In this document: piece by piece, positions 21,123 to 48,900 of the stretch
Layout of the letters: each line of letters opens with the position of its first letter
Position numbering within the stretch: position 1 is the stretch's first letter
Source of the DNA: Clostridia bacterium
Lineage (GTDB): Bacteria > Bacillota > Clostridia > Christensenellales > UBA1242
Assembly: GCA_050872785.1 (NCBI GenBank)
Contig: JBNMHO010000001.1
Coordinates: 22,937-86,936 of the forward strand
DNA: 64,000 nucleotides
Reading direction: 5' to 3'
Made by a program: the position numbers and the translations under genes
Notes under the pieces: model-generated
What the model was told of the DNA's origin: nothing
Seen by the model: only the letters and a program-made list of their open reading frames with translations
The model's database searches: none

Positions 21123-21155
21123 AAGAATCTCCTTATTTTCTTTGCATCAAAAATT

Positions 21156-24890: not shown

Positions 24891-24959
24891 TTTTGCTCCT
24901 TAATAAAATGTTTGTTTATCGTTGTTTTTGGGAATAATATAAATAAGATTGCATGAATG

Positions 24960-24988
24960 TTTATAAATGTTTTTATCAGAATTTACAA
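24960..24988 (-). promoter_or_regulatory. Candidate rpoB promoter
   Basis: On the minus strand: TTGTAA (24988..24983), a 17-nt spacer, then TATAAA (24965..24960), with a T-rich upstream tract. A second candidate lies farther upstream: TTGACT-17-TAAACT with TGn at 25154..25126. Confidence 0.35.
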
Positions 24989-25367
24989 AAAAAAAATTAT
25001 GCTTGATAACTCAATTCAACTAACACTAAACTAAATTAAAAAACATAATTTTGACATGCAGATACCTTCTTTTATTTGATTAAATCCTACAAAAAGCAGC
25101 AATATAACAGTTTATCGTAACTCAGAGTTTATCACAAGGGGAAAATTAAGTCAATAGTTTTTTCAAAAAAAATTTATTTTGTCAAGCATTTTTTGCAATT
25201 TTCTCCAATTTTGGCAAAAAATATCACTATTTTCTCCCCAAAAACTATGTTACATAACAAAAATATCACACTTTTCCACATATTTCAATGTTAAATTTGC
25301 ACAAAAATTCATTTTTTGTGGATAAAGTAGTGGTAGCTCTTATTTTTTCTTTCTTCTTTCTTATTTC

Positions 25368-25397
25368 AAAAAAAATATCCCCCAGTTTGGGAGATAT
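25368..25397 (-). terminator. Strong rho-independent terminator after the 5,799-aa gene
   Basis: On the minus strand AUAUCUCCCA...UGGGGGAUAU forms a 10-bp stem with one mismatch, followed by U8. The stem spans 25375-25397. It starts 3 nt after the stop at 25401. An A/T-run on both sides makes it potentially bidirectional. Confidence 0.8.
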
Positions 25398-25400
25398 TTT

Positions 25401-34400: not shown

Positions 34401-37400
34401 TTCAATCTTTTCAAAAAGCCCAAGATTTATGCTGCCAGTTGAAGAGGAGTTGTAGGAGAAACTTTTAATGAATATAACTTTGTTATTGCCGTCAAACGAG
34501 CCAATTTTTGTTGAAAGTGGGGTGTAATTTTCAAGGACAATGTCGTTTACAAGTCTATAGTCCTTGCCCTCTTGCATGCTTAGGAACTCGTCCGCCGTTG
34601 AAACTGGAATTGCATTTCTAAGTTCAGTAGCATACACAAACATTACATCAAGAGTTTGAGTAAATTGTTTTATCTTGTCATAACTTTCTGTCAAGTAGTC
34701 GCAAACATTTGGAACGCCAGCAGATTTAGAGTCAAGGGTATTTTTTGCTGAATATGAAATTTGAGAATCAAAGATTATGTTGAATGTTCTGTTTGCCCTC
34801 AAGCCATAAAGTGCAAAATAGTCTTTAAACTTTTCTACGCCAAATGTTTCTTCAAGATATTTATTGCCGCTTACAAGTTGCGAGCCGTCTTCGCTTTTGA
34901 ACACCCCCGAAATAGTCCCTTGATTGTTTGTCGTAACTTTTGCAACTGAGTCTGCAAAGTCATTAAGATAATCGACAAAATATTGTTTTACTTCATATCC
35001 TGCGTTAGTAAGATTTTTGTAAAGGCTGTCTTTTTCTCTTTCGCCCGCTTTTGTGCCAATATTTTGATACCAATCGTCATACCAACTATTCTCTGCATTT
35101 ACACTGTCGTCATAGTAAGCAGAAACATTAAGTTTGAGTGGTGTTGTCGTAGCAACTTTAACTTTTAGACTGTTATTCTCTGCATTTTGGACAGAAATGT
35201 TTTTAACAGTGAACAAAGTAACAACAAACTTAACTTCATAACTATAAGTTTGCTTGTTATTTGTAATTTCGCCACGCAAAGTTACAGTTTTTCCAACAAG
35301 GTCAGTATTAAATATTTCGCCATATTTTAGAACTTGAACATAATATTTGCCATTTTCTTTTGTTGGTTCCAAGGCTTCCTTTATCTCTGAGAATTTTGCA
35401 TAAGCATTTCCCCTTTCATCAACAGCAGAAAGTGACCATTTTATGTTGTCAGAATAGTTTATTGTTTCAACTGAAAGTTCGTTCTTTGTGTTTATTGGAA
35501 GATAATACAAGGTGTCATTGTCGTCTTTGAGCAGACTCTTATCAAAACTGAACGTTATCCCCGGTTTTCTGAGAGTGTAAACTGTTTCTTCTTTTGTGAG
35601 AATAACAGTGCCTTGTTCGTTTATTATTTCAATTTTAATTACAAATTGAGTGCCTTCTGTTACTGTTGAATCAGTAAATAGTTTGAAGAAATAACTTCTT
35701 GCATAAGAATACACACCATTGTCGTTGCTGAGGAATGTGTCTTGTCCAACAGACTTATGGACGGTCAAACTCTTTCCGTCCGCCCCTATAACGGCCACAC
35801 TTGCATTGTCAACAAATTGCTTGCCGTGTTCGTTTTTAAGGTCTAGAGTTATTGGTGACATAAACAGCAAGTCGCCAGTTGAAGAAGTGTATGAAAGCCT
35901 GACATTTGAATAGTTTGTTACATAAGGATAGACTTCAACCCCAAGCACCGCTGGCGAGTCGGCAAGTCCAGAATAGATATATCCGCCGCTGCTCTTTTGT
36001 GGGAAGTCGTCATAATCTGCATAGACATTTGTGTAAACACTTTTAACTTCGTTTTCGCCAATAATCTTAACATTGACCGAAACTCCGACAGAAGCATTTA
36101 TGCTTGAATGGAATTTAAATACATAATTTTTGTCTTGTTTTATGCCTGCAAGTTTATCTTTAAACCAAACTGTGAATGATTGAGAGATTTTTCTAAGTCC
36201 CGTTTTGCCACGAGTTTCCGTTGGACCAACAATCTCCACTTTGCCAACTTCGTCAACAAATTCATATTGATATTCCCCAACATTTATGCCAAGGTCAGCT
36301 GACAGTCCCAAAAGATTATCAAGAATAATCTTATCATCAACGCTGTCCGTTGCCATGCCTATTGTAAAGGACAATGTTTGAAGTTGATTCATAACAAAGT
36401 TTGGTTGAGTGTTATTTGATAGAGCAATAGAGGTTGCACCATGAGTTATTGAGAGATAGAAGTTTGTTGAGTGTTCTTCAAGCAAGAAATTTTTTCTTTC
36501 GCCGTCAACCACTTGATAAATATATGGCACACATTTGATATTGAGTTTTGCCCCATCTGGAATGGCAAGAAGTGGAATGAAAGACGCAAATGTTGCATCA
36601 ATATTCACATAATATTTTTCAATTTTGCCATTTGAAACAACTGAACTCCATTGTTTTGAGCCGATTGTGAAAATATTTCCGATGCTTGTTGCTGTTCCGT
36701 TTAGATTTTCGATAATTGGATTTATGTCATCGCTTGCAACTTCAAAGCGAAGTCCCACATTGTCCATTGCACGAAGATTTACTTCTTCGCCCAAAACTTC
36801 TACGACAAATTCTGGATTTGCATAAACTGTTTGCGTTTCAGAAAGCAGAAGGTCTATGCCCAAATTTTCGCTAAGTGGAGCGGTGAAACTGGTGTTTGCA
36901 TAAATATTAACATCACTTAGTCCATAGCAAAGGATAATTTGAACTTTTGCATTGTAAGTTGAGTTTTGCGAACTGAGCATTGATGAAATGGTGAGTGTTA
37001 CAGTTTCGCTTCCCTCTTTGCCGATTGATTTTACAATAATATTTTCGCCCGACACTTCAAGCAAGTCTGAACTGCTTTGAACGATAAGCTTGTTTGCTTT
37101 TGCCCCGCTTGGAGAAACTGTTATATCTAAGAGTTCAAGCAATTTTGTTGTATTAAGTGTTGTTAAAATAGAAGAAGAAACTGAATTTTGTTCATCTGTT
37201 GCAAAGAACAACATTAGAGTTTTGTCGTCAAGTTTTACATACTTCCAACCTTCATCACTTGAAAGGTTATCTCTTGTCACAACATTGACAGTCACTGGTC
37301 CCAAAACAAATAGTGGTTCACTCTTTGTGACAGTTGTTTCGCCAACTTTCACGTCATAGGAGATGTAAAGCATTGGAAGCCCAACAACATTGCCGCTTGT

Positions 37401-40400
37401 GTCTTTTTCCGCTTTCCATGGAAGTTGTGTTAAACTGCTTTCAAATTTTGTATTTATTTGTTCCGCAAATTGTGTTTCTGAATAACTTGTGTTGCCAACA
37501 AAATATGTTGACTTTCCTGCTTTATCAATAACTTTTGAAAATGACAATGTGTTGTTTCCAAAGTTCACCCCAGCACCCAAACTTCCCCAAGTTCTTGAAG
37601 ACCCAGACGCATTTACAACACCTTTCCCAAAGATGTTTGCAACATTGTATTCGCCTTCGTTTGACATATATGAGAAGATGAATGAAGCAATGGAACTTGG
37701 TGCCCAAAGATTGACATTTGCTCCGCAAGCGAAGAATTTTGCATGGTCACTGCTTCCCGCAAAGCCGCCCGCAAGACCGTCATTTATTTCGTTGAGATTA
37801 AAGCCCGTTGATGTTTCGTTTGCCACAACGTCATAATTGTCTTGATTTGCAAGCCATGTTGTGCCTTGAGAAACATATTCGTCATGATAACTTGTAACGG
37901 AAAGATATTGTGCATTAACGCCAACAAGTTTTCCCGCAAAGCCACCGACCTCGCCTTTTCCCACAACAAAATTTCTTGAGTGTTCGTCACTTACATAATT
38001 TTCTGCCCCAACGTCATATATGCCAACTGGAATATCAAAAACATTCTCGACAACAACTTCACTAGATTTCAAGAACCCTCTTGCAGCCCCAACAACTCCA
38101 CCAACATAATGATGTCCCAAAACGTGTGAAGAAGTGTAACTGTAACTTAGAGAATAATTGTCGTTTAGGTCAGTTATTTTGCTGTTATATTTTTCATTTG
38201 TAACAGCAAGTCCTGCAATTCCGCCAACAAAGTCGCAGTCTTCAGCACTCACATTCCCTTGCACGCTAAGGTTTGAAATTTTGCCGAAGTTTGTTCCAAC
38301 TGCCCCGCCAACGCCGCTTAAAATTCCGTCACCCGCATTTTCCAAGGAATAATCTCTGTCCATTGCAAAAAGTGCCGAGATATTTGCATAACTTTGTGGG
38401 ATGAAGAATGAAGTATTTTCATCTTCCCCGCCCACGATAAAGTTTTCAAACATTTTTACAATTCGAGAAGGAATATTATTGATGTTTATGTTATTAAGTG
38501 CATTTTCGTTGCCAGAAATTTGAACTGTAATATTTATGTTGCTGTCGTAAGCACTGTCGCCAAAGGACACGCTGTCTGCGTTCCCCCTTGCAAAACTTCC
38601 AACAATTTCGCCAAAGTTAAGTCCAGCAATTCCGCCCACAGACAAAAGTTCTTTGCCCATAGAAATAATTGTCACATCGCCAGTTAAACTTCTTGAAGAA
38701 GATTGCTTTTCTGAAAGTTCAATTTTTCCGAAGTTGACGCCAGCAATTCCGCCAAAAACTGTTTGTTTGTTTGTTCTTAAAATTGCGCCAGAGAAACTTG
38801 CTGTGCACTCCAAAATTTCGCCAAAGTTAATGCCCGCAATTCCGCCAAATGTAATTTCATTTGCAATGTTTGGTTGAGCAAAGACAAATTTAATATCAAT
38901 GTCACTCACCTTGCCATGCAATGTTTCAAAAAGTCCGAATGTTTTTGAGCAAATTTGAGAAGGGAGATATACATTTTCTATTGAATAATATTCATAGTGT
39001 GTTGTGGCAGAAGTCTTGTCTTGAACTTCATATCTGCCCGAAAGTTCGCCACCAAAGCCATAGGCATAATATATTTGATCTGCTCTGTAAGCTGTTTGCA
39101 AAACGTATTTGTCAAGGTTGTTTTTGATGTAATAAACGCCATTTGCAAATTGTTCTTCGGTTATATTTACTTCAAAATATCCGCCGATTGGTGAGAAAGT
39201 CCTTGAACTGTCAAAGCGAATGTTGTTTGTTAAAACATATCTCTTTGTTGGGTTTTGTGAAATGTTCAAAAGGTCTTGAACACTTGACACACTGTATGGC
39301 ACATCTTCGCCATTTTCAACATCAAGTTGAATGACCAAAGCATTTTCCCAAATGTTTAGCAAACTTGAATAATCAACAACTTTTGCATAATATTTTCTGC
39401 CTTCTGTATATTCGTTTGCAAGTTCATATACGCCTGCATTTTGGACATAGAACACGCCCAAAGTAAAGTCCTCTTTTGAAAGTTCAATTTCCCTCATTTC
39501 GCCAGAGAAAATTTCATATTGTGCTTTTGAATAAATTTTGTCTTGTGGCAAAACAACAATCAAAATTCTTCCCGCAAGTCCTGTTGGAGAAATTGTCAAT
39601 GTTGCGTGCATATTAGTTTTGTTTTGAATGGAAGCACTTGCAACACCTCTTGCCGCCACCACATACATTGTTTTCCCGCCAATAGTCACAACTGAAACAT
39701 TTTGTGTGACTAAAGTTTTGTTGTATGCTTTTTCATTTGCAATTTCAAGAGGAATATTTATATCGCCATCAATATCCATATCTCTAAGACGCAAGGTTGT
39801 TTGCCCGTCTGCATAAATGTCTGACACTTGCTCGTGTTTTAAAACGGAGATATTTTTTCTTGCAAAGTGACTTTGTCTAAATTCTACAATCTTAACTTCA
39901 ATTTGAATTGTTGAGATATTTTTTGTGTTATCTTGAAGTTCAAACCAATATTTTCCACCAAAAACTCCTTCAAAAAGAAGTTTTAAAACGCTATTATCGC
40001 CCGAGGTTTTGGTCATTGTGCCATTTGTCACTTCATAAACGCTATCAATGTTTCCGTCAATTCTTATTGTTATATATGATTTTTCTTCAAAAGTCTTTGT
40101 TGGCGTTCTGCCCGAAGTTTTGTTAACTTTAACATCAAATCCAAAAACATTTTCTGGTGGGTTTGTTGGATCAAAGGTTATACCCGATTCAAGTTTTTGT
40201 TCATAAGCCACGCTTTGTGGGTCAAAAACTTCAATGCGTGAGAGATTTATATCAATTTCTTCAACTGGAACATAAGAAGACAATGTAAAAGTCCACTCTA
40301 AGGTTGTCCCGTCAAGATTTTCTAGTTTAAACTGAACGACATAAGTTTTTCCGTTTGAAAGGTCGCTTGTAAACATAAAGGCATTTGCTTTGCAATTAAG

Positions 40401-42800
40401 TTCAAAGTAGTCGTCAGAGATTTTGCTTGAGCCAGTTGTTCTGCCGTCATGATAAACTGTATAAGGGGTTTTGATTTGCACGTCTTTGCCGCTTGTTATG
40501 TCAAAAACAGTGTAGGTCATGTCATATCTTGTTGCGTCATATGGTCTTGTGGTCAAAAGGAAATTGACTTGTTCTTTTGCTTTGACTTTTGCATAAATAT
40601 TTCTTGTGCCAATGGTGTAGTCGCCAATGCTGCTGTTTGAAGAAATATCCACAATTTCTGCGTCCATACTGACAACTGGATAATACACATTTACTTCAAG
40701 CGAGTAAGTTTGTCTTAAATTTGACGAACCAAGAGAGATTGCAACATTTTTGCCAACGCTTTGTGGGTCAAGAATAATTTTGCCGCCCTCAACTTTTGCC
40801 AAAACGACATTATCTCTAAGCGAAGAAACATAAACATTGCTTAATGTTGCGTCAAGTGGGAAAACATTGAGTGTTAAGATTGCTATGTAATCTTTTGACA
40901 AGTCAAGGTCCAGTGAAGCCTTTGCGTTTTCAAAGATTACGTTTTGCCTGTCGTAAATAATGTAGTCCCCCGTTGTTTCGTCAATTTCTCTGCTTCTTAA
41001 AACAAGGTCATAGCCCGTTATTTCGCTTATGCCTTGAACAAGCGAAAGTTTTACGACACATTCTGCGCTAGATTGTTCTTCGCAAGACACAACTTGCATA
41101 AACACGTCATCACCAATAAACGCTTCGCCCGCTTCTTTTATCTTAAAGTAGAAATTTGTCCCAGCAAGGAATCTATGTCCCTCAAAGCCCGATTGAAGCA
41201 AGTTGCCCTCTGCGTCCATTGAGATTTGGAACATATTTAGCACTTCATCTTCAGAAAGTTTTGAAATGGTGGAACTTTCCGCTTGACGTTTATAGAATTT
41301 AATTTGAAATGCCGTTCTGTTGCTTAAAACATTTAGTGGTTCACCAACTGTAAGAGAAATTTTAACACCAAGTGAAGCGTCAAAGTTTGTCATGAGTTCG
41401 GTGCCATAGCAGTTATTTTCAACAAAGTTTCCTTCAATGTTGTTGTTTTGCAAAATGTTGCCATTTGCTGCGTAGTTATTTACAACAGTATAACATTTTG
41501 TTCTGAGAGTTGCAGAGGTTGCAAATTCTTCGTTTGCATAGTCCACATATTCACAACGGAAAAGCATGTCATATGTGCCTTGTGGATAGTTTGCCGAGCC
41601 TTCGGTTGACTTAACTTTTGAAGGAACAAGCCTTATGTAGCAAAGTGCATAAGTCGAGTGAGAGATATTTCCTTCTGTTGTAATTTCGCCGTCAGCGTTG
41701 AAATATCTTATAGGCAGACTGTTTTGTCCAAAGGTCAAGCCATAGTTTTCATAATTTGGTTGAACGCTCACAGTGAATGGGCAAAGTGAGTCCTCAACGC
41801 TAAAAATATTAAGTTTTTTGCCATTTGTGTCAACTCGCAAAACAAAATCTTTGTGAGTTATGGCAATGTTTGTTATAAAATTTATAGTGGATAGAATGTT
41901 ATCGCTATCCCCAACTTTCGAGCCAAGCCCGTTTGATGAGGCTTCGTCAAAAGTATAGATTTCAAAGTTAGATATTTGTGGCAAAAATTCAATCTGTTGA
42001 AGTTGCACCAAGTCATCGCCAAGCGGATTTGAATAAGTTGCCCTTACATAAATTTCACCATTCTCTTGCAAGTCATAATCTTCAAGAAGCGTCAAAACGC
42101 CTGAATTTAAAGATATATTTTTGGCTGCAAGTTGAATAGAAGAATATGGAATAAATCTGTCAAGCAATGTTTCGCCTTCACCAGACAAAACGCCAAGTTC
42201 AAAAGCGACATTTCTCATGCCAAAACTCAAGTCGTTTTCAAGACCGTCTGCTAAGTTTGTTGTTGTGCCACTTTTATAGGAAAGTGCAATTTTGCTTTCC
42301 TTAAATCTGAGTGCAGTAGGCACTTGTGCAACCGAAATATTAACACTTCGTTGCTTGTTCCCTTCAGCACTTAAAACTGTCAAAACAGTTGAGCCCTCTT
42401 GATTTGGAGTGACGGAAAATCTTATACCGCCATCAATATATTGTTTTTTGCCAACTGTCAAAATTGGATTTGAAAGACTGACACCGATGTCGCTGTTGAA
42501 GTCATCTGGAGTGCCTGTGAATGTTGCGTCAATGTAAGCCGAGCCTTGAGCGCTTCCGTAAATGTATAATGTGTAAGACCCGTCCAAATTTTCGTCAACC
42601 ACAGAGTTGTCACTCGCATTTGTCCAACGCTTTGTGCCGTCTTCCAAAGTTCTGGAGGAAAAAGAAGTGAAGCAAAAACTTAGGGACATTCTCAAATCCC
42701 CATATCTTTCCTTGCAACCGAAAATTACAAGCGAAGACACTATCAGCAAAAAAATCATTATCTTGCTAAAAATCTTTTTCATTTCTTCTTCCTCTTTCAA
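25401..42800 (-). CDS. Giant predicted surface lipoprotein (5,799 aa from the TTG; 5,793 aa from the more likely ATG at 42782). It has Ig-like arrays plus six cap+GLUG-type repeat modules.
   Basis: It is a single uninterrupted 17.4-kb ORF. From the ATG at 42782 (RBS AGAGGAAG) the N-terminus reads MKKIFSKIMIFLLIVSSLVIFGC, a signal peptide plus lipobox-like IFGC. GG[ILV][VA]G repeats recur throughout (YAGGLVGQATNSTFIGCINYAEV...VYVGGLVGQMISGEI). Cap motifs of the form ..L..L...NSG...DIDLSGK.W.PIG....F.G.F.G.G..I recur as well. Confidence 0.85.
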   Translation of the reverse strand: MKEEEEMKKIFSKIMIFLLIVSSLVIFGCKERYGDLRMSLSFCFTSFSSRTLEDGTKRWTNASDNSVVDENLDGSYTLYIYGSAQGSAYIDATFTGTPDDFNSDIGVSLSNPILTVGKKQYIDGGIRFSVTPNQEGSTVLTVLSAEGNKQRSVNISVAQVPTALRFKESKIALSYKSGTTTNLADGLENDLSFGMRNVAFELGVLSGEGETLLDRFIPYSSIQLAAKNISLNSGVLTLLEDYDLQENGEIYVRATYSNPLGDDLVQLQQIEFLPQISNFEIYTFDEASSNGLGSKVGDSDNILSTINFITNIAITHKDFVLRVDTNGKKLNIFSVEDSLCPFTVSVQPNYENYGLTFGQNSLPIRYFNADGEITTEGNISHSTYALCYIRLVPSKVKSTEGSANYPQGTYDMLFRCEYVDYANEEFATSATLRTKCYTVVNNYAANGNILQNNNIEGNFVENNCYGTELMTNFDASLGVKISLTVGEPLNVLSNRTAFQIKFYKRQAESSTISKLSEDEVLNMFQISMDAEGNLLQSGFEGHRFLAGTNFYFKIKEAGEAFIGDDVFMQVVSCEEQSSAECVVKLSLVQGISEITGYDLVLRSREIDETTGDYIIYDRQNVIFENAKASLDLDLSKDYIAILTLNVFPLDATLSNVYVSSLRDNVVLAKVEGGKIILDPQSVGKNVAISLGSSNLRQTYSLEVNVYYPVVSMDAEIVDISSNSSIGDYTIGTRNIYAKVKAKEQVNFLLTTRPYDATRYDMTYTVFDITSGKDVQIKTPYTVYHDGRTTGSSKISDDYFELNCKANAFMFTSDLSNGKTYVVQFKLENLDGTTLEWTFTLSSYVPVEEIDINLSRIEVFDPQSVAYEQKLESGITFDPTNPPENVFGFDVKVNKTSGRTPTKTFEEKSYITIRIDGNIDSVYEVTNGTMTKTSGDNSVLKLLFEGVFGGKYWFELQDNTKNISTIQIEVKIVEFRQSHFARKNISVLKHEQVSDIYADGQTTLRLRDMDIDGDINIPLEIANEKAYNKTLVTQNVSVVTIGGKTMYVVAARGVASASIQNKTNMHATLTISPTGLAGRILIVVLPQDKIYSKAQYEIFSGEMREIELSKEDFTLGVFYVQNAGVYELANEYTEGRKYYAKVVDYSSLLNIWENALVIQLDVENGEDVPYSVSSVQDLLNISQNPTKRYVLTNNIRFDSSRTFSPIGGYFEVNITEEQFANGVYYIKNNLDKYVLQTAYRADQIYYAYGFGGELSGRYEVQDKTSATTHYEYYSIENVYLPSQICSKTFGLFETLHGKVSDIDIKFVFAQPNIANEITFGGIAGINFGEILECTASFSGAILRTNKQTVFGGIAGVNFGKIELSEKQSSSRSLTGDVTIISMGKELLSVGGIAGLNFGEIVGSFARGNADSVSFGDSAYDSNINITVQISGNENALNNININNIPSRIVKMFENFIVGGEDENTSFFIPQSYANISALFAMDRDYSLENAGDGILSGVGGAVGTNFGKISNLSVQGNVSAEDCDFVGGIAGLAVTNEKYNSKITDLNDNYSLSYSYTSSHVLGHHYVGGVVGAARGFLKSSEVVVENVFDIPVGIYDVGAENYVSDEHSRNFVVGKGEVGGFAGKLVGVNAQYLSVTSYHDEYVSQGTTWLANQDNYDVVANETSTGFNLNEINDGLAGGFAGSSDHAKFFACGANVNLWAPSSIASFIFSYMSNEGEYNVANIFGKGVVNASGSSRTWGSLGAGVNFGNNTLSFSKVIDKAGKSTYFVGNTSYSETQFAEQINTKFESSLTQLPWKAEKDTSGNVVGLPMLYISYDVKVGETTVTKSEPLFVLGPVTVNVVTRDNLSSDEGWKYVKLDDKTLMLFFATDEQNSVSSSILTTLNTTKLLELLDITVSPSGAKANKLIVQSSSDLLEVSGENIIVKSIGKEGSETVTLTISSMLSSQNSTYNAKVQIILCYGLSDVNIYANTSFTAPLSENLGIDLLLSETQTVYANPEFVVEVLGEEVNLRAMDNVGLRFEVASDDINPIIENLNGTATSIGNIFTIGSKQWSSVVSNGKIEKYYVNIDATFASFIPLLAIPDGAKLNIKCVPYIYQVVDGERKNFLLEEHSTNFYLSITHGATSIALSNNTQPNFVMNQLQTLSFTIGMATDSVDDKIILDNLLGLSADLGINVGEYQYEFVDEVGKVEIVGPTETRGKTGLRKISQSFTVWFKDKLAGIKQDKNYVFKFHSSINASVGVSVNVKIIGENEVKSVYTNVYADYDDFPQKSSGGYIYSGLADSPAVLGVEVYPYVTNYSNVRLSYTSSTGDLLFMSPITLDLKNEHGKQFVDNASVAVIGADGKSLTVHKSVGQDTFLSNDNGVYSYARSYFFKLFTDSTVTEGTQFVIKIEIINEQGTVILTKEETVYTLRKPGITFSFDKSLLKDDNDTLYYLPINTKNELSVETINYSDNIKWSLSAVDERGNAYAKFSEIKEALEPTKENGKYYVQVLKYGEIFNTDLVGKTVTLRGEITNNKQTYSYEVKFVVTLFTVKNISVQNAENNSLKVKVATTTPLKLNVSAYYDDSVNAENSWYDDWYQNIGTKAGEREKDSLYKNLTNAGYEVKQYFVDYLNDFADSVAKVTTNNQGTISGVFKSEDGSQLVSGNKYLEETFGVEKFKDYFALYGLRANRTFNIIFDSQISYSAKNTLDSKSAGVPNVCDYLTESYDKIKQFTQTLDVMFVYATELRNAIPVSTADEFLSMQEGKDYRLVNDIVLENYTPLSTKIGSFDGNNKVIFIKSFSYNSSSTGSINLGLFEKIESDVEVSGEKKQIVIQNTTVYYTPNVTEEIFSNGDEITKILEPSLESLRISLPNASSVTFGGIASSNAGVITNANVLGGVKIEINSSDVVSGGTATSLVGGLVGTNEKTGYITNSSVGAKLFRSKAKQGEEKTYDGFDIYCYGKVGGFVGTNSGKIVASYFESGSIEHNSKEEGVGGFVQTNNGEILECYVQGRRSENDKDIRNTGSGIVSRAGIVGGFVYSNNGTISDCYSNIWLSSSGAIAGFVYVDSASSVISRSYSISYKKAGDNNTTAYPFAGPKTLLSTEVCINGVLNDCFFLNDRTKNDKWENTNFYTEGSSDPAKTPANKKAVELSTANFATHTYFTNYDLSLIYNSDGQYANDDKYSYVDGYTWVIIEGKPVLASTLVRTISQRDYLGKKKNYTGYTQIFALQSTSDWKSAKRDNDPSITDYTSSSSGKLLFSKQDNGDTVDFIYPAVETANGNFESLVITYQVVKDGGKTTYVNPVAEYGEDKRVLDIQEGSINDENPKDTNFRANDTITVTFDYENNFISNITYYTLDENNITYYYKGDVSGISFASGNQTNPVTIYDRDSLVYALTNTVSSDDNLDKYFRIICDIDLDGEFLSTSKANFTGVLQGNHMTIDNLSMSYNRWQADQVDKEAFGMFAKITADEKKDTIISNLKLGIVQIVSNVHPYVGALAGIVTGTSVKTDKKVLFNNISIAAADGGYAPVQGRNVVGGLAGYIGKNVIIKDITTDVSVISTFDASGDASEAVRLYLKENSNLSSCSYVGGVVGVFDATSVVDKATKKNYNASNVTVLSGNAFLGGVVGTAFGLLGTDTIANYVNVQVESNDTSFVKAQFYGGGIVGENRGILLSSSARNVDENDSTVSVGKSTLAQYDYFFNAAGTQTVAIGGLVGLNNGGLISNCIGAIDVRSSRTTIVGGAVGRQLAGGIENVIVSGSVMGDKIIGGLVGTFNDKEMIASPESSFSERVMMKDDNMHLALTGYNLAEGSQVICRISNCVAENNWLYEDYDKYVRKIDAITKVAVGGFVGLISTIDNTDENGRTYTWKDKIVFDGQSTYVAAISNGNSKRYLKAAYACETFDYAKEVSENEYTILCNIQGQQSVFPAEQQELYVSTQSSDISYTIKRIPFTTYSDKSSEGDEYKNIIYQIGQVGDKDFSQDSEFYDDIKILEISSSREDYRKKGGSFESGIWYHSNSTDKPVDYTWFAEHFGVVYERYEYYYASDKTIVTGIRKIVDYNNMGSEDKMVVAFGNTYDINFGADNYYTVSYKSMPESSKREIVNSETGKTEEEYPDTTKSKTTFCYIARPTISNFTFDRTFEYKSNNEVKNDIALYGGDESTGAIKKGVNSFESVGLLTDQSTFVLNGLKLFEIKDAGLTLWTEVQENSEYRLSDEMLGEWKGVDLPDGGKIVDITIHVAQAEVDKTWYVSKVILTYEYKGVVVEDNSSKATFLKQSQNPDNPLETTYSLISSAKKSAFKSFDSGYWIFANDFYSGVIPFESKYPQNIEYAETYVWEDFRTTGETGLITEIKTAEDLALFAYLVNSGNDYANQEVQLSADIDLSGKYWIPIGKDANHSFKGKFNGQGRTIKYISVDENSFANSEETKVEYAGLFGYLSGATISSLTLLGGETKGNCAGGLAGVAENSTFSGIANRNNVIGDSYAGGLVGQATNSTFIGCINYAEVKSSNNYNSQNVYVGGLVGQMISGEIKNAEGVETANNGTIQAQSTHNNNFTEHKISLYAGGIVGCAENVKISCDLKNYGNINITTNATNIWAGGLFGKLNTESCAGMFNKGKVSVVNSNRNTTDERSKMYVGGNVGEAITSMLQMSNEEDVTVVCDLVTRLDSYVGGIAGLLSGNLSESYNAKNISFTSKGGDAAYVAGLVGVMSCAEGSNVIAVSDCYNSGKVTTTCGGVGYIAGIVGLCEGETNHVAIKNTLSIGQVSTQSGEGTSFTGAITNFAQNTSLIYRPEKYIVDGVQKVLTFANFFLRGTAVMDGQTQDGLGGELPANYEEEKFAKGRISTTLKEESTYNPEGGKAIWNFGNGVDDATWEWKYATWYPTLANNSPNTIWTDSVEDMVQVGGDYVIDTPEQLANLALLSNSGTLDTKGKTFRLRNAIDLSNKLWIPIGTEEFPFEGTFEGGGYSVYNMTVDGTAVVLSGIKDLKLGGLFGVVRNSKIANLGVISPIVKNVNNAAGVVAKANNTLIQNVYTEIGEAKSCGIVGDLVAGGIVCNLENSLDTQSAKLGLHTSYNNVSVEANAKLTERTQCVGGLVANLKNSSVVNCYNGTNGLISIGSPSKPSETVMVVGSQENGELVNVFNICTNGGKELTATPALFEIVDGEMKKVDGEGVTPVFDNLTSSTSDGKKSTIWAKEYSLNPQGSKGELYPSLRGVGLEWKNTECDSLLSFSTQVDGYKSRVRAAADANDIMFAEEVLGAQELSSKDSSINQIYLISTPQELAWLSLAVNSGMRSAHCEFILTANIDLSGRFFTPIGQSEQTAFCGVFNFNGHTISGLTIDNLSYNYAGLFGWTSNAYIINGYVKDAFVKVESSTSTTNMFVGTVVGYANNTTIKNISVSTAVLAKNVGKVYVGGVAGYVSGTIQYKMENILSRPSTKTLAAGENYIDLSDYNSRIYEEDSTSGASKLKDISINIGGISLSERVFAGGIVGFMSNYNSEATLAGMSYCTNESNVVAMSVGSQPANVYGGGVAGYLANQMAIEACQNSGAIKTSSTLFDAVGGIVGYMFYGTMRNCYSTGYVESCLNSSIKGETSSGSVFSYIGGIVGISIGGTITHTISQSSTYQDVLTGKNIAVGGIIGYSRDKDNFSGDVSVMFDSAGNFGSAQNGIGLSDPAIDKNATVYSSDFTKFSINTADQTLFQPAYWSGSSSAIHLKSQKAYIALTSVFAANISLVEKDVSRSPLVYQEQGNTFRGLLADIDGNYSLEVAKDSEMEAITLTILKLDGTREVITQKTDFGTSESVTVEITNYVKDAVCIFVTVVKK

Positions 42801-42901
42801 TCTGGAATTAAAATTTATGTAAAATTTATCTTTTGTATTTCAATATTTTTTTTCTAAAGCACCCTTAATTTTGTTTAATTTTTCTTTGTTTTTGTGCATT
42901 T

Positions 42902-42949
42902 CAAAATGACTCCTCAAGCGGGCGAGTCACCCGCTCAAGGTCATTTTTT
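42902..42949 (-). terminator. GC-rich intercistronic stem-loop between the two giant genes (weak terminator, attenuator or RNA-stabilising hairpin)
   Basis: The outer arms are AAAATGAC (42903-42910) and GTCATTTT (42940-42947). The inner arms are GCGGG and CCCGC. The minus-strand RNA gains G-U pairs, giving an inner stem of about 11 bp. Only 4 U follow on the minus strand, against 6 on the plus strand. Confidence 0.45.
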
Positions 42950-42960
42950 AAGCGAAGAAA

Positions 42961-45900
42961 TTAAGTTTCTTGTTTAAAAGTAAACTTTTTGATCTCTTGG
43001 TCTATTTTTTCGCTATCCCATGATGTCCCAGTATCGCCCTTACGTTTGTAGGAGTAAAGACTTTGAAGAGTGTAGGCTGATTGAGTTGTTTGTGTTATAT
43101 ACTTATTATCTCCATCGCCTTTATCTCTTGCGTTTCTAACTTTCTCCTCAACTGAACCGTCTGTTGTTGAACCGCCAACATAAGGCAATCCCTCTCCAGT
43201 ATCACACTGCATGTTGTAATAACCTGAAACGACGGGTTCGCTAATGCTGTAACTATACCATTCTGGGCCATTGGCTTCACTTCGTGTCAGATTTCCACTA
43301 AGGCTAGCATTTGCTTTTTTCAGCATTTCTTTATACCACCACGAATCTTCCTCTTTAATTTCACTAACCATTCTTTCTGGCTCTGACGCATTTGTATTTA
43401 GGGTATCATTTCCCTTCTCTGTAGAATACTTTCCATACGGAGTTGCTGCAGCTGTATATTTATTAACTGTTTCCGACCAAGTCCACTCCAGTTTATAATA
43501 AATAATCACATAACGTTCTTTAAGCTCAGAAGACTCTCCTTCTCTTCCAAGCCAATTTATAGAAACACCTGGTTCTTCCCCTTCAATCTTCTTAACTTCT
43601 GGCTTAAAGGTGTCGCTTTCGCCACTTCCTTTTGCAATAATGACACCGTCTGAGTGTTTTGCATGTCCGACATATTGACCACGGCGTTCGTAGATGATAT
43701 CTTTATAGACTTCATCCTTGTCATTGCCCTCTTCATAAGTTTTGTCATTCACTTTTTCAGCATTTTGCTTGTAGTAAGCATAGCCGTTTATGTCGGTTGT
43801 GCTGCTGCTGTTTTCGTCAATATAGGCTGAAGTTGCTTTTCCTATCAAGCCACCTATTGCACCTTTGTAAATTTCATCAAGTGCAGATTGAATAGCACTC
43901 ACATTATCACCCGAAATAGTTGAAGAAATGTTATTAGTTTCCCAAGTTGCCTTTTCTTTTGAAGGATTGTTGCCAGTGTTTGTTGCTGTGCCGCTTGAGG
44001 TGCCACCTGTTTCGCTTGAAGATGAATCACTTGTAGTTGCATTTATGTCATATTGAGCGTTGATTGCTGCAGTGTTTTTTGAACCAACAATTTCATTTTT
44101 GCTGGCATCAGGAGTTGCAGCATAACCTACAAGACCGCCAACATAAATTTCTTTGCCTAGCCCCGTAAGTTCGCCACTATTTTCTGAATTGACAATCGCA
44201 CCGCCTTTCATTGTTCCAACCAAACCGCCAAAGAATACCGGATTTGTTTTGTTTAAAACTTCCAACTGAGCACTGTTCTTGACATCTATAACGGCACCAC
44301 CTTCATTCACTGCCACAATTCCGCCAACAGAAAGACCAGTCTTTGTAAGTGTAATTCCTTTCCCTTCAGTTGAAATTTGGCTTTCACATTGTCCAATGGT
44401 TCCTTTGTTTATGCCAGCGATACCACCAAAGTTATAGTTAATTTTCTCTTCGTTATATGCTTCATCAAAGTTCATTGCAATTATGTTAAACACGTATGCA
44501 CCACTTTCGACCAACCCTACAACGGCGCCAAATGAGTCATGAATTTCTGGTTTGCTTTGTTCTGTTTTGCCATCTGCAGTTCTTTTTGCATAGGTCAAAA
44601 TTTTGGTTTTAACTTTTGCTTTTTCTGTATCGCTTGCCGAACCAAGTTTAGCGCCACTTTCAACCATGCCCGCAAATCCACCGAAATATTCAGCATTTAC
44701 GTCACCAGAACTTTCCATGTCAACACTGAGTGAGAATTCACAACCATTGAGTTTAACTTGTGCATTTTGACCAACGGCACCTACAATAATGCCTGCTGCA
44801 ACTGTTGCTTTCATTTTAAGATGTGAAGAAATAGTCATTCCGCTGTCTGATCCAAATTCAACTGTCTTTTTACCGTTTTCACCAACGTAACCTATAATTC
44901 CACCAACATATTCACCTTGAAGTGTTGCTCCCTCAACTTGGGAAGGTAATTTTGCTGTTGACAAAGTTAGGTCGATTGTGTCAAATATTCCCTCATCTAC
45001 GCGTCCAAAACGACCGCCCACATAACATGCCCCTGATATTTTTTCTAAGCCAAATGTCCCAGTTGGTTCCCACGATGCATTTGCTGAAAAATACCCAGCA
45101 AGACCACCAGCATATTCACCACCTTCTACAACGTTTGCTTGGAAGTTGCCACTCTTAACATCAGATGTTACGCCGACGATTGCGCCAATAGCACCGCCAA
45201 GATACGTTTCCGTATTTTTAAAGGAATTACTATTATTATTCTTTACTGCCGTAACCTTTGAGCCGTCAACAGTCTTAACATTGTTGATAACACCTCTGTT
45301 CATCACACCAACATATGCACCTGCAAAGCCTTTGCTTGTTAGTCTGACGTTTCCACTTGTTGGGGCGTTATCTGCGTTATCTTCAGTTCCGATTTGTGGG
45401 GCATTTTTAACATCATTATCATACACAATGCCAAATTGTCCGCCAGTTTCACCGTCTTTCGCTGCACGGGTGTAACCTTTGTCTGTGCCGCTACTATCTC
45501 TATCTTTTCCAAGGAAACCTACAAGTCCGCCGACGTTTACGCCCGAGATGTCTGGGGCTGTGCCACCTACAAGTTTTCCGCCTGTCATCTTTCCGACCAA
45601 GCCGCCTGCTGCAACTTGATGTGCTTGTTTTATCATGCCGTCAAGTGAAGTAACATCTGTGTCATAGCCATTGTTGTAAATCTTGTAATTTCCTCCGGCT
45701 ACAACTGTATCTTCTTCAGAACTACCGACCTTAACTTTTTCAGCCTCATTATAGGAAGTCCCGCCGTTTGCAAATGAGCAACCGTTGATACTTCCGCCAG
45801 CAAGCCATGCAACTGCACCGCCAACGATTTTCTCGCCGTAGATTTCGGTTTGATAAGTGCCACTTACATTGAATTCGCCGTCATAAGACTCAACAATAGT

Positions 45901-48900
45901 AACTGCACCTTGAGTTGCTGCACTGAGTGAGCCGCTTAGCATGATGCCTGCATAAGCACCAGCCCCCATAATGTCCTTGCCGCCTTTGCCACGGACTATC
46001 AATCCACCGGTGCCTTGAACTTCGCCTTTTATTGGCTTAATTTGTCTAATAAGTGCTTTGTTAATTGTAACGCCGCCGTCTATTTTGCCAGCAAGTCCGC
46101 CACCATAAGTGGAATTTGCTATTGTTCCACCAACAATAAATGGATCTGTGTCTGAATCTTTGGTTGCTTGACCAATCGTGCCGCCTTTGGCCACACCTAC
46201 AAGTCCGCCAACCGCTTCTGCTTGTGACACTGTTGTGTCAACATACACGTTTGTTGCAATTACACTGGTATCCTCAAGACTTCCAACAGCACCGCCAGCA
46301 ACTGCTCCGCTGACAACATTGTCTGCGGTTGCGTCACCAACAAGTTGTGTGTCAACAACTTCAAAGGTTGATTCAACACTGAACTTAACTGATCTTGGAA
46401 CGAAGACATCTCCTTCTTCGTATTCGCCAGTTGCATTCCCGTTGTCATCTTTCTTTTCGACTTGACCTTTCTCCATTACACCAAATTCAACATCGTAAAC
46501 TGGATCTTTTGAAGTGACTACATCGTAAGATTTTGTTAGGACATAATATGTGCCATTTGAATCAGAAGCCGTGCCGACACCGAAATTTCCGTTTGAAGAA
46601 TAACTGCTTAATGCTGTAGCAAGTTTGTAAACAAACGCCTTGCTTGTGTGAACGACCTTATTTTCTACTGCGGGGTTTTCTCCACCAACATTAACTTTAT
46701 GTGATCCATTCACCCATTCGTTAATATTAGCATTAACCTTCTCAAACAACGCTGAATCGCCACGAAGTTTTTTAGCATCTTGGAGTTTATACTCACCAAG
46801 ATCCACGCCACTCCCCTCATAACCGTGATAAGTCCAGACTGATGAAGATGTTTCTGCAATTTGTAGCACGTAGCAATTTGAAATTTGTGAATTGCCTACC
46901 ATTCTACCAACAATGCCACCAACAACAGAATCCTCTTTTGGAATGACTTGTGCTTGAGAAACAACATTTTTCAAAATCGCATTGTTAAGTTCACCAATAA
47001 CACCGCCCGCTGCTCCACCTTTGCCTGCAGTAACTTTTACGTTTTTGCCATTTGTGCCACTGCCAAAGATGAAGTTGAGTGACAAGGTTCTCTTATCTGT
47101 GTCTGTTATCGAACTATCAAATTCCACACAACCGATATATCCGCCTGTTGCAATCATACCGTTTTGAATTGATTGGCTTCTGACGTCAACATTTACTCTA
47201 GAGTAAATCTTCGTCACTGTTTTGTCGCCTACTTCAAGATTTGCTTCTACATCTTTAATAGGACTTGTAAGATAACCGATTGCACCGCCGACATAGGCAG
47301 ATTTTAGGACTTCATATTCAACTGTTTTGCCAAGAAGATTGTAACTTCTTGTAAAGCCGCCCACGTTGACGCAATTTGCAATAACAACACTCTTAACATT
47401 TGTGTTGGTTCTTACGCCAGTTATGCCACCAATGTTGCCGCCCCCATAGACACCAACTGCACCACCAGCATAACCGTTTGTTGTTACCACTTCTTCACCT
47501 GAGGCTGGTTCTGAAATTGTTGGTTCTGAACTTCCACTTTCACCGCCAGTTGAGCCACCACTTTCGCCACCAGAGGTTTCACCGTCACCAACTATTGGGT
47601 TGTTTGAAGTAATAGATTGAGTCGCATTTGTGCCATTAGGCTCATCACATTTTCCAGCGAATATTGTTATTGCTGGGCTGAAGAAACTTGAAGTTTCCTT
47701 TGAGTCCGTTCCGACTGCACAAGAGCCAGAAATCATTGCTCCTTCCTTAACCGTTCCAGCAAGACCACCGGCAAATTGAGGAGAAGAAATTGTAATCTGT
47801 CCACCGAGCAAGAAGCCGACTGGGTTTGTGAGATATGCAAATGCACTGCCCGCCACGGTTGTCATATACATCTGGCTGCCTTTTGACATCTTGCCAATGC
47901 CGCCGCCGGAGTACTTGGCATGAGCAACTTGACCGGAGTTGGTTGCACGGAATATTGCCCAGTTACTTAGGTCTGGAGTTGTGATTGATGGGCTTTCCCA
48001 TTTAGTTTGACCGTCCCATGTTGTCCTGATAGAAATTTCATGCGAGGACAATGCCGCCTCTACGTGATTGTCGTTTACACTTGCACCGTCAGCAAGACCA
48101 ATAAGTCCGCCCGCCGCATAGGAGCCAGAAATTGACCCGTAGTTTGCAACAATACCATAAAGTGGTTCTTTTTCATTAAATGATACAATCTTTGCACATT
48201 TGCTTGCATAACCTATGATACCGCCTGCATTCTCATCGCCCATAACTGTTGCAAAGTTGCTTGAAAGAGTAACTATGATATTGCCTTCGCTTGAAACGGT
48301 TTTTTTCAGATCATGTTCATAACTCACATCTTTGCCATTTACATCTTTTCCATTTGATTTGAACTTTTCTGAACCAAACTGCTGGTTAATAACTGCACCA
48401 ATAATACCACCAGCAGAACCAGATGACGCAATGACACCCGATTGGAATGCACTAAGAATTGTTGTCCATGGTTCACCTGGGTTTACGCCAGCGAGTTTTA
48501 TGCCAAATGACAAGCACAAGGAGAATGTAATTGGTTGACTTGTTCTAACCATTCCCACAATGCCGCCGCTTGCGCCGCCGCCAAGTTTGCCTACGTCTGT
48601 ACCTGTTCCATTTTCTTCTTTAATTGCCGCCAAGTCTTCGTCTGTAAACGCAACAATTGTATCTAAGTAATTAAGTCTTGAGTCAATGGAGTCTGAACTT
48701 GAATAATTGGTTGATTTTGACTTAATTGTATAGTTGTACTGATTTACAACAACACCATTGATATATGTGGAAACTGGAATTCCGCCGTCAAAGCCAACAT
48801 CGCCAAGAAGGCTTAAGATTGGTTTAAAGAGGGCTGAATTGAATGAGAAACCAAGTCCAAATTGACCGCCAAGTTGGATATCAATAAGAGATGTTGGGTC

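What the first reader, a model, noticed from the sequence alone, without database searches (positions are those of the whole stretch)
42714..42800. The downstream giant protein begins with a lipoprotein-type signal peptide
Seen in sequence: the track start (TTG, MKEEEE) is probably spurious. The ATG at 42782 is preceded by AGAGGAAG. It encodes MKKIFSKIMIFLLIVSSLVIFGC-KERYG, which has a positive n-region, a hydrophobic core, and Cys at position 23 (codon 42716..42714) in an I-F-G-C context.

Inference: this is a 5,770-aa lipid-anchored extracellular protein. Tethering so large a chain by one acylated Cys is unusual. It also suggests how the locus is fixed to the cell, since no sortase motif is present. 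The -2 Phe is atypical for a lipobox, so signal peptidase I cleavage or an uncleaved anchor remain possible.
Basis: partly seen in the sequence, partly recalled or inferred. Interest (0 to 1): 0.55.

Follow-up and report, generated by a model that had tools for sequence, protein, structure and literature searches.

The report
Giant surface protein with lipoprotein signal
A 5,793-residue surface protein of an uncultured gut Christensenella begins with a conserved lipoprotein-type signal peptide, as does its even larger upstream neighbour, so both are probably held on the cell by one lipid-modified cysteine, an ordinary anchor on an unusually large protein.

Summary
On the minus strand, ATG 42782 follows AGAGGAAG and opens a 5,793-aa ORF starting MKKIFSKIMIFLLIVSSLVIFGC|KERYG, with Cys23 at 42716..42714. 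The upstream TTG is not the start: in a 69%-identical relative it is an in-frame TAG.

The N-terminus fits PROSITE PS51257 and G+LPPv3. It fails G+LPPv2 and the strict lipobox consensus only because of Phe at -2. It is the only gene among 1,475 candidate starts in the window that fits.

Four Christensenellales relatives keep LVIFGC unchanged, with 5 synonymous and 0 non-synonymous changes in the most distant one. In 23 representatives of an unnamed family, many of them 5.6-6.1 kaa at 27-31% identity, this Cys is one of seven invariant N-terminal columns. Position -1 is always G, A or S.

The protein has no other membrane segment, sortase motif or recognised wall-binding domain. Its body contains six GLUG-motif modules.

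The upstream giant (about 8,259 aa) starts off-window with a canonical lipobox, MKKFFVFMSIMLLSLSGVLVAC|GGGRYDDL.

The most likely route is Sec export, Lgt lipidation and LspA cleavage. I could not check for lgt or lspA in the genome, or run SignalP or LipoP. This is a new member of a known kind, of moderate interest.

The parts
25401..42782 (-). Coding sequence of the downstream giant protein: 5,793 aa from the ATG, stop at 25403..25401. The predicted mature lipoprotein is residues 23-5793 (5,771 aa, 628.5 kDa).
   Evidence: Length is conserved in relatives: the P0001 cluster is 5,795-5,805 aa and full-length family members are 5,583-6,053 aa.
42798..42800 (-). TTG that gene callers or ORF lists take as the start (MKEEEE...). 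It is not the real start.
   Evidence: In L006 the same position is TAG, in frame.
42788..42795 (-). Shine-Dalgarno-like AGAGGAAG, with the GAGG core 8 nt upstream of the ATG.
   Evidence: The AAAGAGGAAGA block is conserved in L003-L006.
42717..42782 (-). Signal peptide, residues 1-22. The n-region is MKKIFSK (+3 charge, no RR). It is followed by an uncharged run, IMIFLLIVSSLVIFG.
   Evidence: (Kyte-Doolittle 19-residue mean 2.42, the only strong hydrophobic segment in the protein). AF2 models residues 2-27 as a helix at pLDDT about 72.
42714..42725 (-). Lipobox I-F-G-C, residues 20-23. Cys23 (42716..42714) is the predicted diacylglyceryl attachment site and the mature N-terminus.
   Evidence: Passes PS51257 and G+LPPv3. 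The Cys is invariant in 24 family sequences.
42675..42713 (-). Conserved stretch just after the Cys, KERYGDLRMSLSF. The family motif is C-x-x-[RK]-Y-x-x-L-x-[MFI]-S and Tyr27 is invariant. It is not a typical flexible lipoprotein linker.
   Evidence: Contrast with ordinary Bacillota lipoproteins in PMC13068155.
42912..42940 (-). Intrinsic-terminator hairpin plus T-run after the upstream giant gene. It suggests the two genes can be transcribed separately.
   Evidence: Folding gives -21.8 kcal/mol, and strong hairpins of different sequence sit at the same place in L003-L006.
42961..64000 (-). Upstream giant gene. Its C-terminal 7,012 codons are in the window and the ORF is open to the window edge. 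From a 96%-identical relative the full length is about 8,259 aa and it starts with the lipoprotein signal MKKFFVFMSIMLLSLSGVLVAC.
37503..39299 (-). GLUG-motif module 1, about residues 1162-1760. The end is approximate.
33303..34613 (-). GLUG-motif module 2, about residues 2724-3160. The end is approximate. It is 31% identical to part of the upstream giant.
31083..32714 (-). GLUG-motif module 3, about residues 3357-3900. The end is approximate.
25863..29822 (-). GLUG-motif modules 4-6, starting at residues 4321, 4879 and 5243. Each opens with a cap motif of the form I.T.E.L...DIDL...PIG...F.G.F.G.G..I.
   Evidence: The cap of module 4 is modelled at pLDDT 80-90 and the rest at low confidence.

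Best explanation
Residues 1-23 form a type II (lipoprotein) signal peptide. The proposed sequence of events is as follows:
1. The precursor is exported through Sec. There is no twin-arginine motif.
2. Lgt transfers a diacylglyceryl group to the thiol of Cys23.
3. LspA cleaves between Gly22 and Cys23.
4. [quoted passage not shown]
5. The roughly 1,150-residue beta-rich N-terminal region would pass through the wall. The six GLUG-motif modules, separated by further unannotated stretches, would project outward as a surface fibre.

The upstream giant, about 8,259 aa, is anchored the same way by its own lipobox.

**What is shown.** The sequence features, the true start codon, conservation of the signal peptide and its Cys across the family, the absence of any other recognisable anchor, and the GLUG content.

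**What is inferred.** Lipidation and cleavage themselves, the monoderm envelope, the presence of Lgt and LspA, and the fibre geometry.
For: - **Sequence and coordinates** are as described.
- **Start codon.** The ATG is the start: the TTG is a TAG in L006 and the Shine-Dalgarno block is conserved.
- **Pattern tests.** PS51257 is met: K within the first 7 residues, 16 uncharged residues, Cys at position 23. G+LPPv3 is met. This is the only gene among 1,475 candidate starts in the window that matches both PS51257 and my recalled G+LPP version 1 pattern.
- **Cys position.** Position 23 lies in the range reported for Bacillota lipoproteins: mean 21.4 +/- 2.7, with 79% at 19-23 (PMC13068155).
- **Close relatives.** The signal peptide shows 10 synonymous and 2 non-synonymous changes against L006, and LVIFGC shows 5 and 0. 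The first 50 residues are the best-conserved block of the first 700.
- **Family.** It has 29 members at 50% clustering, and about 19 are 5.6-6.1 kaa and mostly align from residue 1. In 24 aligned N-termini only K2, C23, Y27, R52, Y70, Y73 and F95 are invariant. Position -1 is G in 21, A in 2 and S in 1. PS51257 is met by 23 of 24. No second Cys is conserved, so a disulfide does not explain the invariance.
- **Pfam.** LPAM_1 (lipid attachment site) hits 2 of 24 members, best E 5e-4.
- **No other anchor.** There is no other segment clearly above the Kyte-Doolittle threshold (one at residues 1060-1078 only just reaches it), no C-terminal LPXTG and no C-terminal membrane helix. Pfam finds no wall-binding domain.
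- **Paralogue.** The upstream giant starts with the canonical LVAC lipobox followed by the same C-x-x-RY-x-x-L motif.
Against: - Phe at -2 breaks the strict lipobox consensus and G+LPPv2. Across the family, -2 is Tyr or Phe in 15 of 24 and -3 is Phe in 13 of 24. In a reference Bacillota lipoproteome A, S or T make up 82% at -2.
- The residues after the Cys (K-E-R-Y) do not form the usual G/S/N-rich linker. Bulky aromatic residues are reported absent from that region in ordinary lipoproteins.
- Pfam LPAM_1 does not hit the window sequence.
- No dedicated predictor (SignalP 6, LipoP, PRED-LIPO) could be run.
- lgt and lspA could not be looked for in the genome. They are not in the window or in about 17 kb of extra flank.
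- No other predicted lipoprotein lies in the sequence available for comparison.
Confidence: 0.8

Rival explanations
1. It is an ordinary Sec signal peptide cut by signal peptidase I, for example after Gly22. The giant protein would then be released, or held non-covalently in the wall, not lipid-anchored.
For: - I-F-G at -3/-2/-1 fits the loose small-residue rule for SPase I.
- Bulky residues at -2 are common in SPase I sites and rare in lipoboxes (own knowledge; for lipobox frequencies).
- Family members with C-G-x could also be cut after that Gly.
Against: - SPase I places no constraint on the +1 residue, yet the Cys is invariant in 24 of 24 sequences at 30-40% N-terminal identity while +2 varies (G, D, N, K, A, E).
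- Position -3 is Phe in 13 of 24 family members. That is disfavoured for SPase I (own knowledge).
- A 22-residue signal is short for a Gram-positive secretory signal and typical for a lipoprotein.
- There is no wall-binding domain to keep the protein on the cell.
Confidence: 0.1
2. The hydrophobic segment is an uncleaved N-terminal signal anchor, giving a single-pass type II membrane protein.
For: The segment is strongly hydrophobic (Kyte-Doolittle mean 2.42) and is the only such segment in the protein. AF2 models it as one helix.
Against: - Only 16 uncharged residues lie between Lys7 and Lys24. That is short for a stable membrane-spanning helix (own knowledge).
- An anchor would not need an invariant Cys preceded by G/A/S at a fixed distance from the N-terminus across the family.
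Confidence: 0.06
3. Translation starts elsewhere, at the TTG at 42800 or at an internal Met, so the described signal peptide is wrongly placed or is not made.
For: A mechanical ORF list gives the TTG as the first start. Two family representatives in the database carry longer called N-termini (P0003, P0027).
Against: - TTG is TAG in L006.
- The Shine-Dalgarno block sits 8 nt before the ATG and is conserved.
- Nearly all family members start at MKK.
- Synonymous-only variation in codons 1-23 shows they are translated.
- Starting at TTG would still give a lipobox, with Cys at position 29.
Confidence: 0.02

Closest known systems
Bacterial lipoproteins with type II signal peptides (PROSITE PS51257; Lgt/LspA pathway), as catalogued in Bacillota (e.g. 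PMC13068155)
   Same: Positively charged n-region, short uncharged h-region, G at -1, Cys at position 23, no twin-arginine motif, and the Cys conserved among homologues.
   Different: - Aromatic residues at -2, and at -3 in most of the family.
- A conserved [RK]-Y motif after the Cys where a flexible linker is usual.
- A mature chain of 5,771 aa, which from my own knowledge is roughly ten to twenty times the size of typical substrate-binding lipoproteins.
GLUG-motif surface proteins (Pfam PF07581). From memory these include the streptococcal Zmp/IgA1 metalloproteases.
   Same: Repeated GG[ILV][AV]G motifs that score above the Pfam gathering threshold in three of ten segments.
   Different: No peptidase or other catalytic domain was detected. 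The anchor is an N-terminal lipobox, not a sortase motif. The protein is far larger, with six modules separated by unannotated regions.
Giant fibre-like surface proteins of Gram-positive bacteria, for example Staphylococcus aureus Ebh (recalled, not tested here)
   Same: Multi-thousand-residue, acidic, repetitive extracellular chain with a single membrane attachment point.
   Different: As I recall, Ebh is held by a C-terminal membrane segment and has a YSIRK-type signal. Here the only hydrophobic segment is the N-terminal lipoprotein signal.
Giant proteins of Omnitrophota and other phyla (bioRxiv 10.1101/2023.11.21.568195)
   Same: Very long ORFs found mainly in metagenome-assembled genomes, with mostly unannotated sequence.
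   Different: Those proteins exceed 30,000 aa, have numerous transmembrane regions and usually SecA-like DEAD helicase domains. This one has one signal peptide and no such domains.

Membership tests
Bacterial lipoprotein (type II signal peptide) | Lys or Arg within the first seven residues (n-region) | tested here: met
   MKKIFSK has K2, K3 and K7.
Bacterial lipoprotein (type II signal peptide) | Uncharged h-region of about 7-22 residues ending at the lipobox, with Cys between positions 15 and 35 | tested here: met
   Sixteen uncharged residues, IMIFLLIVSSLVIFGC, with Cys at position 23. This is within the 19-23 range that holds 79% of a reference Bacillota set.
Bacterial lipoprotein (type II signal peptide) | PROSITE PS51257 pattern {DERK}(6)-[LIVMFWSTAG](2)-[LIVMFYSTAGCQ]-[AGS]-C | tested here: met
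   Met by the window sequence and by 23 of 24 family N-termini. I wrote the pattern from memory of the PROSITE entry.
Bacterial lipoprotein (type II signal peptide) | Gram-positive lipoprotein patterns G+LPPv2 and G+LPPv3 | tested here: inconclusive
   G+LPPv3, which allows F at -2, is met. G+LPPv2 is not met (pattern text from PMC13068155). In the family, 14 of 24 meet v3 and 10 of 24 meet v2, because Tyr at -2 is in neither pattern.
Bacterial lipoprotein (type II signal peptide) | Strict lipobox consensus [LVI][ASTVI][GAS]C | tested here: not met
   IFGC fails at -2, and only 5 of 24 family members pass. The upstream giant (LVAC) passes.
Bacterial lipoprotein (type II signal peptide) | Lipobox Cys conserved among homologues | tested here: met
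   The Cys is invariant in 5 of 5 close relatives and 24 of 24 family sequences.
Bacterial lipoprotein (type II signal peptide) | lgt and lspA present in the genome | not testable with these tools
   Neither is in the window or in the extra flanks reached.
Bacterial lipoprotein (type II signal peptide) | Dedicated predictor call (SignalP 6 Sec/SPII, LipoP, PRED-LIPO) and experimental lipidation | not testable with these tools
   No such predictor is available here. Pfam LPAM_1 hits 2 of 24 family members but not the window sequence.
GLUG-motif proteins (Pfam PF07581) | Score above the Pfam gathering threshold of 20.5 bits | tested here: met
   Scores of 24.8, 23.0 and 31.8 bits in three 600-aa or shorter pieces, with weaker matches in four more. 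Nothing was reported when the protein was scanned in two large pieces.
Sortase-anchored (LPXTG) surface proteins | C-terminal LPXTG-like motif followed by a hydrophobic segment and a charged tail | tested here: not met
   The only loose motif match, LPNAS, lies mid-protein at residue 2845. The C-terminus ...AVCIFVTVVKK has no membrane segment.
Wall-bound proteins with SLH, CWB2, LysM, SH3b or similar modules | A recognisable wall-binding domain | tested here: not met
   No Pfam match other than GLUG. None in the N-terminal 1,300-2,400 aa of five homologues.

The most novel reading that the evidence does not exclude
The two genes may be founding members of an unnamed family of 0.6-0.9 MDa lipid-anchored surface fibres of Christensenellales. 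The family lipobox is unusually aromatic (consensus F-[YF]-G-C), and an invariant C-x-x-[RK]-Y motif follows it directly. These features could mark dedicated handling, such as special retention, N-terminal modification or assembly through the wall. The fibres could mediate the cell-cell aggregation for which Christensenella is known; that aggregation with methanogens is recalled from the literature, not tested here.
Probability: 0.12. Interest if true: 0.65.

Novelty: new member of a known kind. Interest (0 to 1): 0.4.

Why it matters
Christensenellaceae are prominent, heritable, health-associated members of the human gut flora, and their cell surface is poorly known.

This work shows that two adjacent genes, about 42 kb together, encode predicted lipid-anchored proteins of about 0.63 and 0.9 MDa. 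That points to the probable dominant surface structures of these cells, and they belong to an unnamed family in which the lipobox Cys is invariant. Their lipidated N-termini could act as TLR2 ligands, which I infer from general knowledge of lipoproteins and did not test.

It also gives a useful test case for lipoprotein predictors and for Lgt/LspA specificity, because Tyr or Phe at -2 and Phe at -3 lie at the edge of accepted lipobox patterns.

Practically, it corrects the start codon and shows that the locus needs no sortase.

Tried and rejected
- **The search for homologous proteins.** Searches with residues 1-800 and 1150-2349 returned nothing, and a family profile returned only two fragments. 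These are false negatives of the word index, because an 89%-identical protein is in that same collection.
- **AF2 on residues 1-450, single sequence.** Mean pLDDT was 36, and only the signal-peptide helix was moderately confident.
- **AF2 on GLUG module 4 with a paralogue alignment.** Mean pLDDT was 39, and only the 70-residue cap was confident. I therefore ran no fold search.
- **PDB sequence searches.** Nothing was found for either half of the protein. The N-terminal profile gave only one match at E 0.12.
- **Pfam.** Nothing on large pieces, nothing on homologues, and no LPAM_1 hit on 40-residue N-termini.
- **Search for lgt and lspA near the locus.** The flank beyond whiA holds dnaE, pfkA, greA, holB and others. 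The flank beyond the upstream giant holds an LPG-synthase fragment and an M23 peptidase.
- **Literature searches.** I found no description of giant lipoproteins or of Christensenella lipoproteins. The survey of huge proteins recorded only the presence or absence of a signal peptide.
- **Polymorphic-toxin reading.** I considered and dropped this: no recognised toxin domain was found, and rpoB follows where an immunity gene would be expected.
- **Tat, pilin-type and YSIRK signals.** These do not fit MKKIFSK followed by a hydrophobic run and G-C.

Full report
**1. What is in the sequence**

On the minus strand, the stretch 42800..42714 reads TTG AAA GAG GAA GAA GAA ATG AAA AAG ... GGT TGC.
- The ATG is at 42782..42780.
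- AGAGGAAG occupies 42795..42788, and its GAGG core lies 8 nt before the ATG.
- The product begins MKKIFSKIMIFLLIVSSLVIFGCKERYG, with Cys23 encoded at 42716..42714.
- The ORF continues to a stop at 25403..25401, giving 5,793 aa from the ATG.
- The lipobox Cys is retained after cleavage, so the mature chain would be 5,771 aa (628.5 kDa, pI 4.7).

**2. The start codon**

Four related loci were recovered from genome collections:
- L003, Christensenella sp. UBA7862, 97% identical
- L005, a Hadza gut Clostridia MAG, 89%
- L004, an uncultured Christensenella, 72%
- L006, a Christensenellales MAG, 69%

All keep the ATG and the AAAGAGGAAGA block. In L006 the TTG position is TAG, in frame, so the TTG cannot be the conserved start.

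A GC-rich hairpin followed by a T-run (42940..42912, -21.8 kcal/mol) lies just after the stop of the upstream gene. Strong hairpins with different sequences sit at the same place in the relatives. The gene therefore probably has its own transcription start. The consensus scan did not find a sigma-70-type promoter, and I did not resolve the promoter.

**3. Does it look like a lipoprotein signal?**

The n-region has three Lys and no twin Arg. Sixteen uncharged residues follow, up to and including the Cys.
- It meets the PROSITE PS51257 rule.
- It meets G+LPPv3, the pattern quoted in PMC13068155. That version was extended specifically to allow Phe at -2.
- It fails G+LPPv2 and the strict [LVI][ASTVI][GAS]C consensus only at -2.

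Among 1,475 candidate starts in the window with at least 60 aa remaining, this gene is the only one that meets both PS51257 and my recalled G+LPP version 1 pattern. In the related loci only its orthologues do.

Cys at position 23 fits the reference distribution for Bacillota lipoproteins: mean 21.4 +/- 2.7, 79% at 19-23. Those signals are noted to be shorter than secretory ones.

**4. Conservation among close relatives**

Against L006 the 23 signal-peptide codons carry 10 synonymous and 2 non-synonymous changes. The six codons of LVIFGC carry 5 synonymous and none non-synonymous. The first 50 residues are the best-conserved block of the first 700: 84-88% identity in L004 and L006, against 56-80% further on. 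These codons are therefore translated and under purifying selection at the protein level, Phe21 included.

**5. Conservation across the family**

An exhaustive HMMER search with the first 1,200 residues found 29 cluster representatives. About 19 are 5,583-6,053 aa long at 27-31% identity, and most align from residue 1. Nearly all begin MKK, then a hydrophobic run, then G/A/S-Cys at position 23 or 24.

In an alignment of 24 N-termini, only seven columns are invariant: K2, C23, Y27, R52, Y70, Y73 and F95.

| Position | Residues seen (of 24) |
|---|---|
| -3 | F 13, L 5, I 4, V 1, A 1 |
| -2 | Y 10, F 5, V 5, A 2, I 2 |
| -1 | G 21, A 2, S 1 |
| +2 (residue after the Cys) | variable: G, D, N, K, A, E |

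PS51257 is met by 23 of 24. No second Cys is conserved, so a disulfide partner does not explain the invariance. An invariant Cys preceded by a small residue at a fixed distance from a basic N-terminus is the signature of SPase II substrates. SPase I imposes nothing on +1.

Pfam's lipid-attachment-site model hits 2 of the 24 (E 5e-4) but not the window sequence. No source names the family; it is called "hypothetical protein" once.

**6. The neighbour**

The upstream ORF is open to the window edge, with 7,012 codons in the window. A 96%-identical metagenome contig (L007) reaches its start, 1,247 codons further up. It reads MKKFFVFMSIMLLSLSGVLVAC|GGGRYDDLNVSVVS.

This is a canonical lipobox. It passes the strict consensus, G+LPPv2, G+LPPv3 and PS51257, with Cys at position 22. 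The same C-x-x-RY-x-x-L motif follows it. The two N-termini align from residue 1 at 26% identity over 212 residues (E 1e-5).

The upstream giant is thus about 8,259 aa and carries its own predicted lipid anchor. All three relatives whose flank extends far enough upstream keep the tandem pair.

**7. The rest of the protein**
- The signal peptide is the only strongly hydrophobic segment (Kyte-Doolittle 19-residue mean 2.42). A second segment at residues 1060-1078 only just reaches the 1.6 threshold (1.63). There is no C-terminal LPXTG-type motif and no C-terminal membrane helix.
- Pfam recognises only the GLUG motif, above threshold in three pieces and weaker in four. Whole halves gave nothing.
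- Six modules start at residues 1162, 2724, 3357, 4321, 4879 and 5243, each with a cap motif followed by GG[ILV][AV]G repeats.
- The first roughly 1,150 residues and the inter-module regions have no recognisable family, including in homologues, and no sequence relative in the PDB.
- AF2 could not model either the N-terminus or a module with the shallow alignments allowed.

**8. Organism and context**

The closest named relative is Christensenella sp. UBA7862 (Bacillota, Clostridia, Christensenellales). Downstream on the same strand lie rpoB, rpoC, rpsL, rpsG, fusA, tuf, an AI-2E-family transporter, trpS, uvrC, murB and whiA.

MurB shows the cell makes peptidoglycan. From established knowledge, diderm Firmicutes are confined to Negativicutes, Halanaerobiales and Limnochordia (for example PMC5007114, listed). 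[quoted passage not shown]

lgt and lspA are near-universal in bacteria (established knowledge). They could not be checked here. They are not in the window or in the roughly 17 kb of extra flank reached.

**9. Mechanism and rivals**

The best explanation is Sec export, Lgt lipidation of Cys23 and LspA cleavage at G22|C23. The protein then stays tethered, and the wall meshwork probably helps to hold a chain this long (inference). Confidence is about 0.8.
- **SPase I cleavage, about 0.1.** The bulky -2 residue favours it. The invariant Cys, Phe at -3 in most of the family and the short signal argue against it.
- **Uncleaved signal anchor, about 0.06.** The 16-residue hydrophobic run and the fixed G-C argue against it.
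- **A different start, about 0.02.** L006 excludes the TTG, and even that start would give a lipobox.

**10. Comparison with what is known, and novelty**

The signal is a member of a well-known class, and the GLUG motif is a known surface-protein motif. Three things are not described in anything I could find:
- the size of the predicted lipoproteins, 5.8 and about 8.3 kaa;
- their membership of a conserved, unnamed family;
- the family's aromatic lipobox and the conserved [RK]-Y motif after the Cys. In ordinary Bacillota lipoproteins small residues dominate -2, and bulky residues are absent just after the Cys.

I rate it a new member of a known kind, with moderate interest.

Noticed in passing
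window 42961-64000 (minus strand); L007:3501-7241: The upstream giant ORF runs off the window. The ATG at 63963 given by the ORF list is not its start, because the frame is open to position 63999. From a 96%-identical contig it is about 8,259 aa long and begins with a canonical lipoprotein signal, MKKFFVFMSIMLLSLSGVLVAC, followed by the same C-x-x-RY-x-x-L motif as the downstream gene.
   Followed up: yes
window about 42890-42905; L003:9816-9895; L005:1463-1510: An 11-nt A-rich tandem repeat, AAATGCACAAA, lies between the terminator of the upstream gene and the start region of the downstream gene. Copy number varies: 7.3 in L003 (97% identical strain), 4.4 in L005 and about one in the window. 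The period is about one helical turn, so copy number might tune expression.
   Followed up: partly
window 24891-25400 and 17508-24890: The two giant genes sit directly upstream of rpoB-rpoC-rpsL-rpsG-fusA-tuf, about 510 nt before rpoB. From my own knowledge that position is usually taken by rplJ-rplL.
   Followed up: no
window 42681-42702 (minus strand, codons 27-34): A terminator-like hairpin plus T-run lies inside the coding sequence just after the lipobox. L006 carries a pair of synonymous changes that keep the stem, but L004 breaks it (read from the sequences). It is probably chance.
   Followed up: partly
family N-termini P0002-P0018 (alignment A2): Many family members carry one or two extra Cys inside the hydrophobic core, for example ...LTCCGLFYGC, six to seven residues before the lipobox Cys. 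The window protein has Ser-Ser there.
   Followed up: no
window 5072-6160 (minus strand): A 362-aa ORF between uvrC and murB has no NCBIfam or Pfam family. It is found identical in Logan assemblies of runs SRR30769980 and SRR30769984.
   Followed up: no
L007:59-2383: Upstream of the larger giant gene lie a fragment of a lysyl-phosphatidylglycerol-synthase-like membrane protein, a 175-aa ORF with no family and an M23 peptidase.
   Followed up: partly
tool behaviour: The word-indexed protein search missed an 89%-identical, 5,805-aa homologue that is present in its own collection. Negative results from that tool for very long repetitive proteins should not be trusted.
   Followed up: yes
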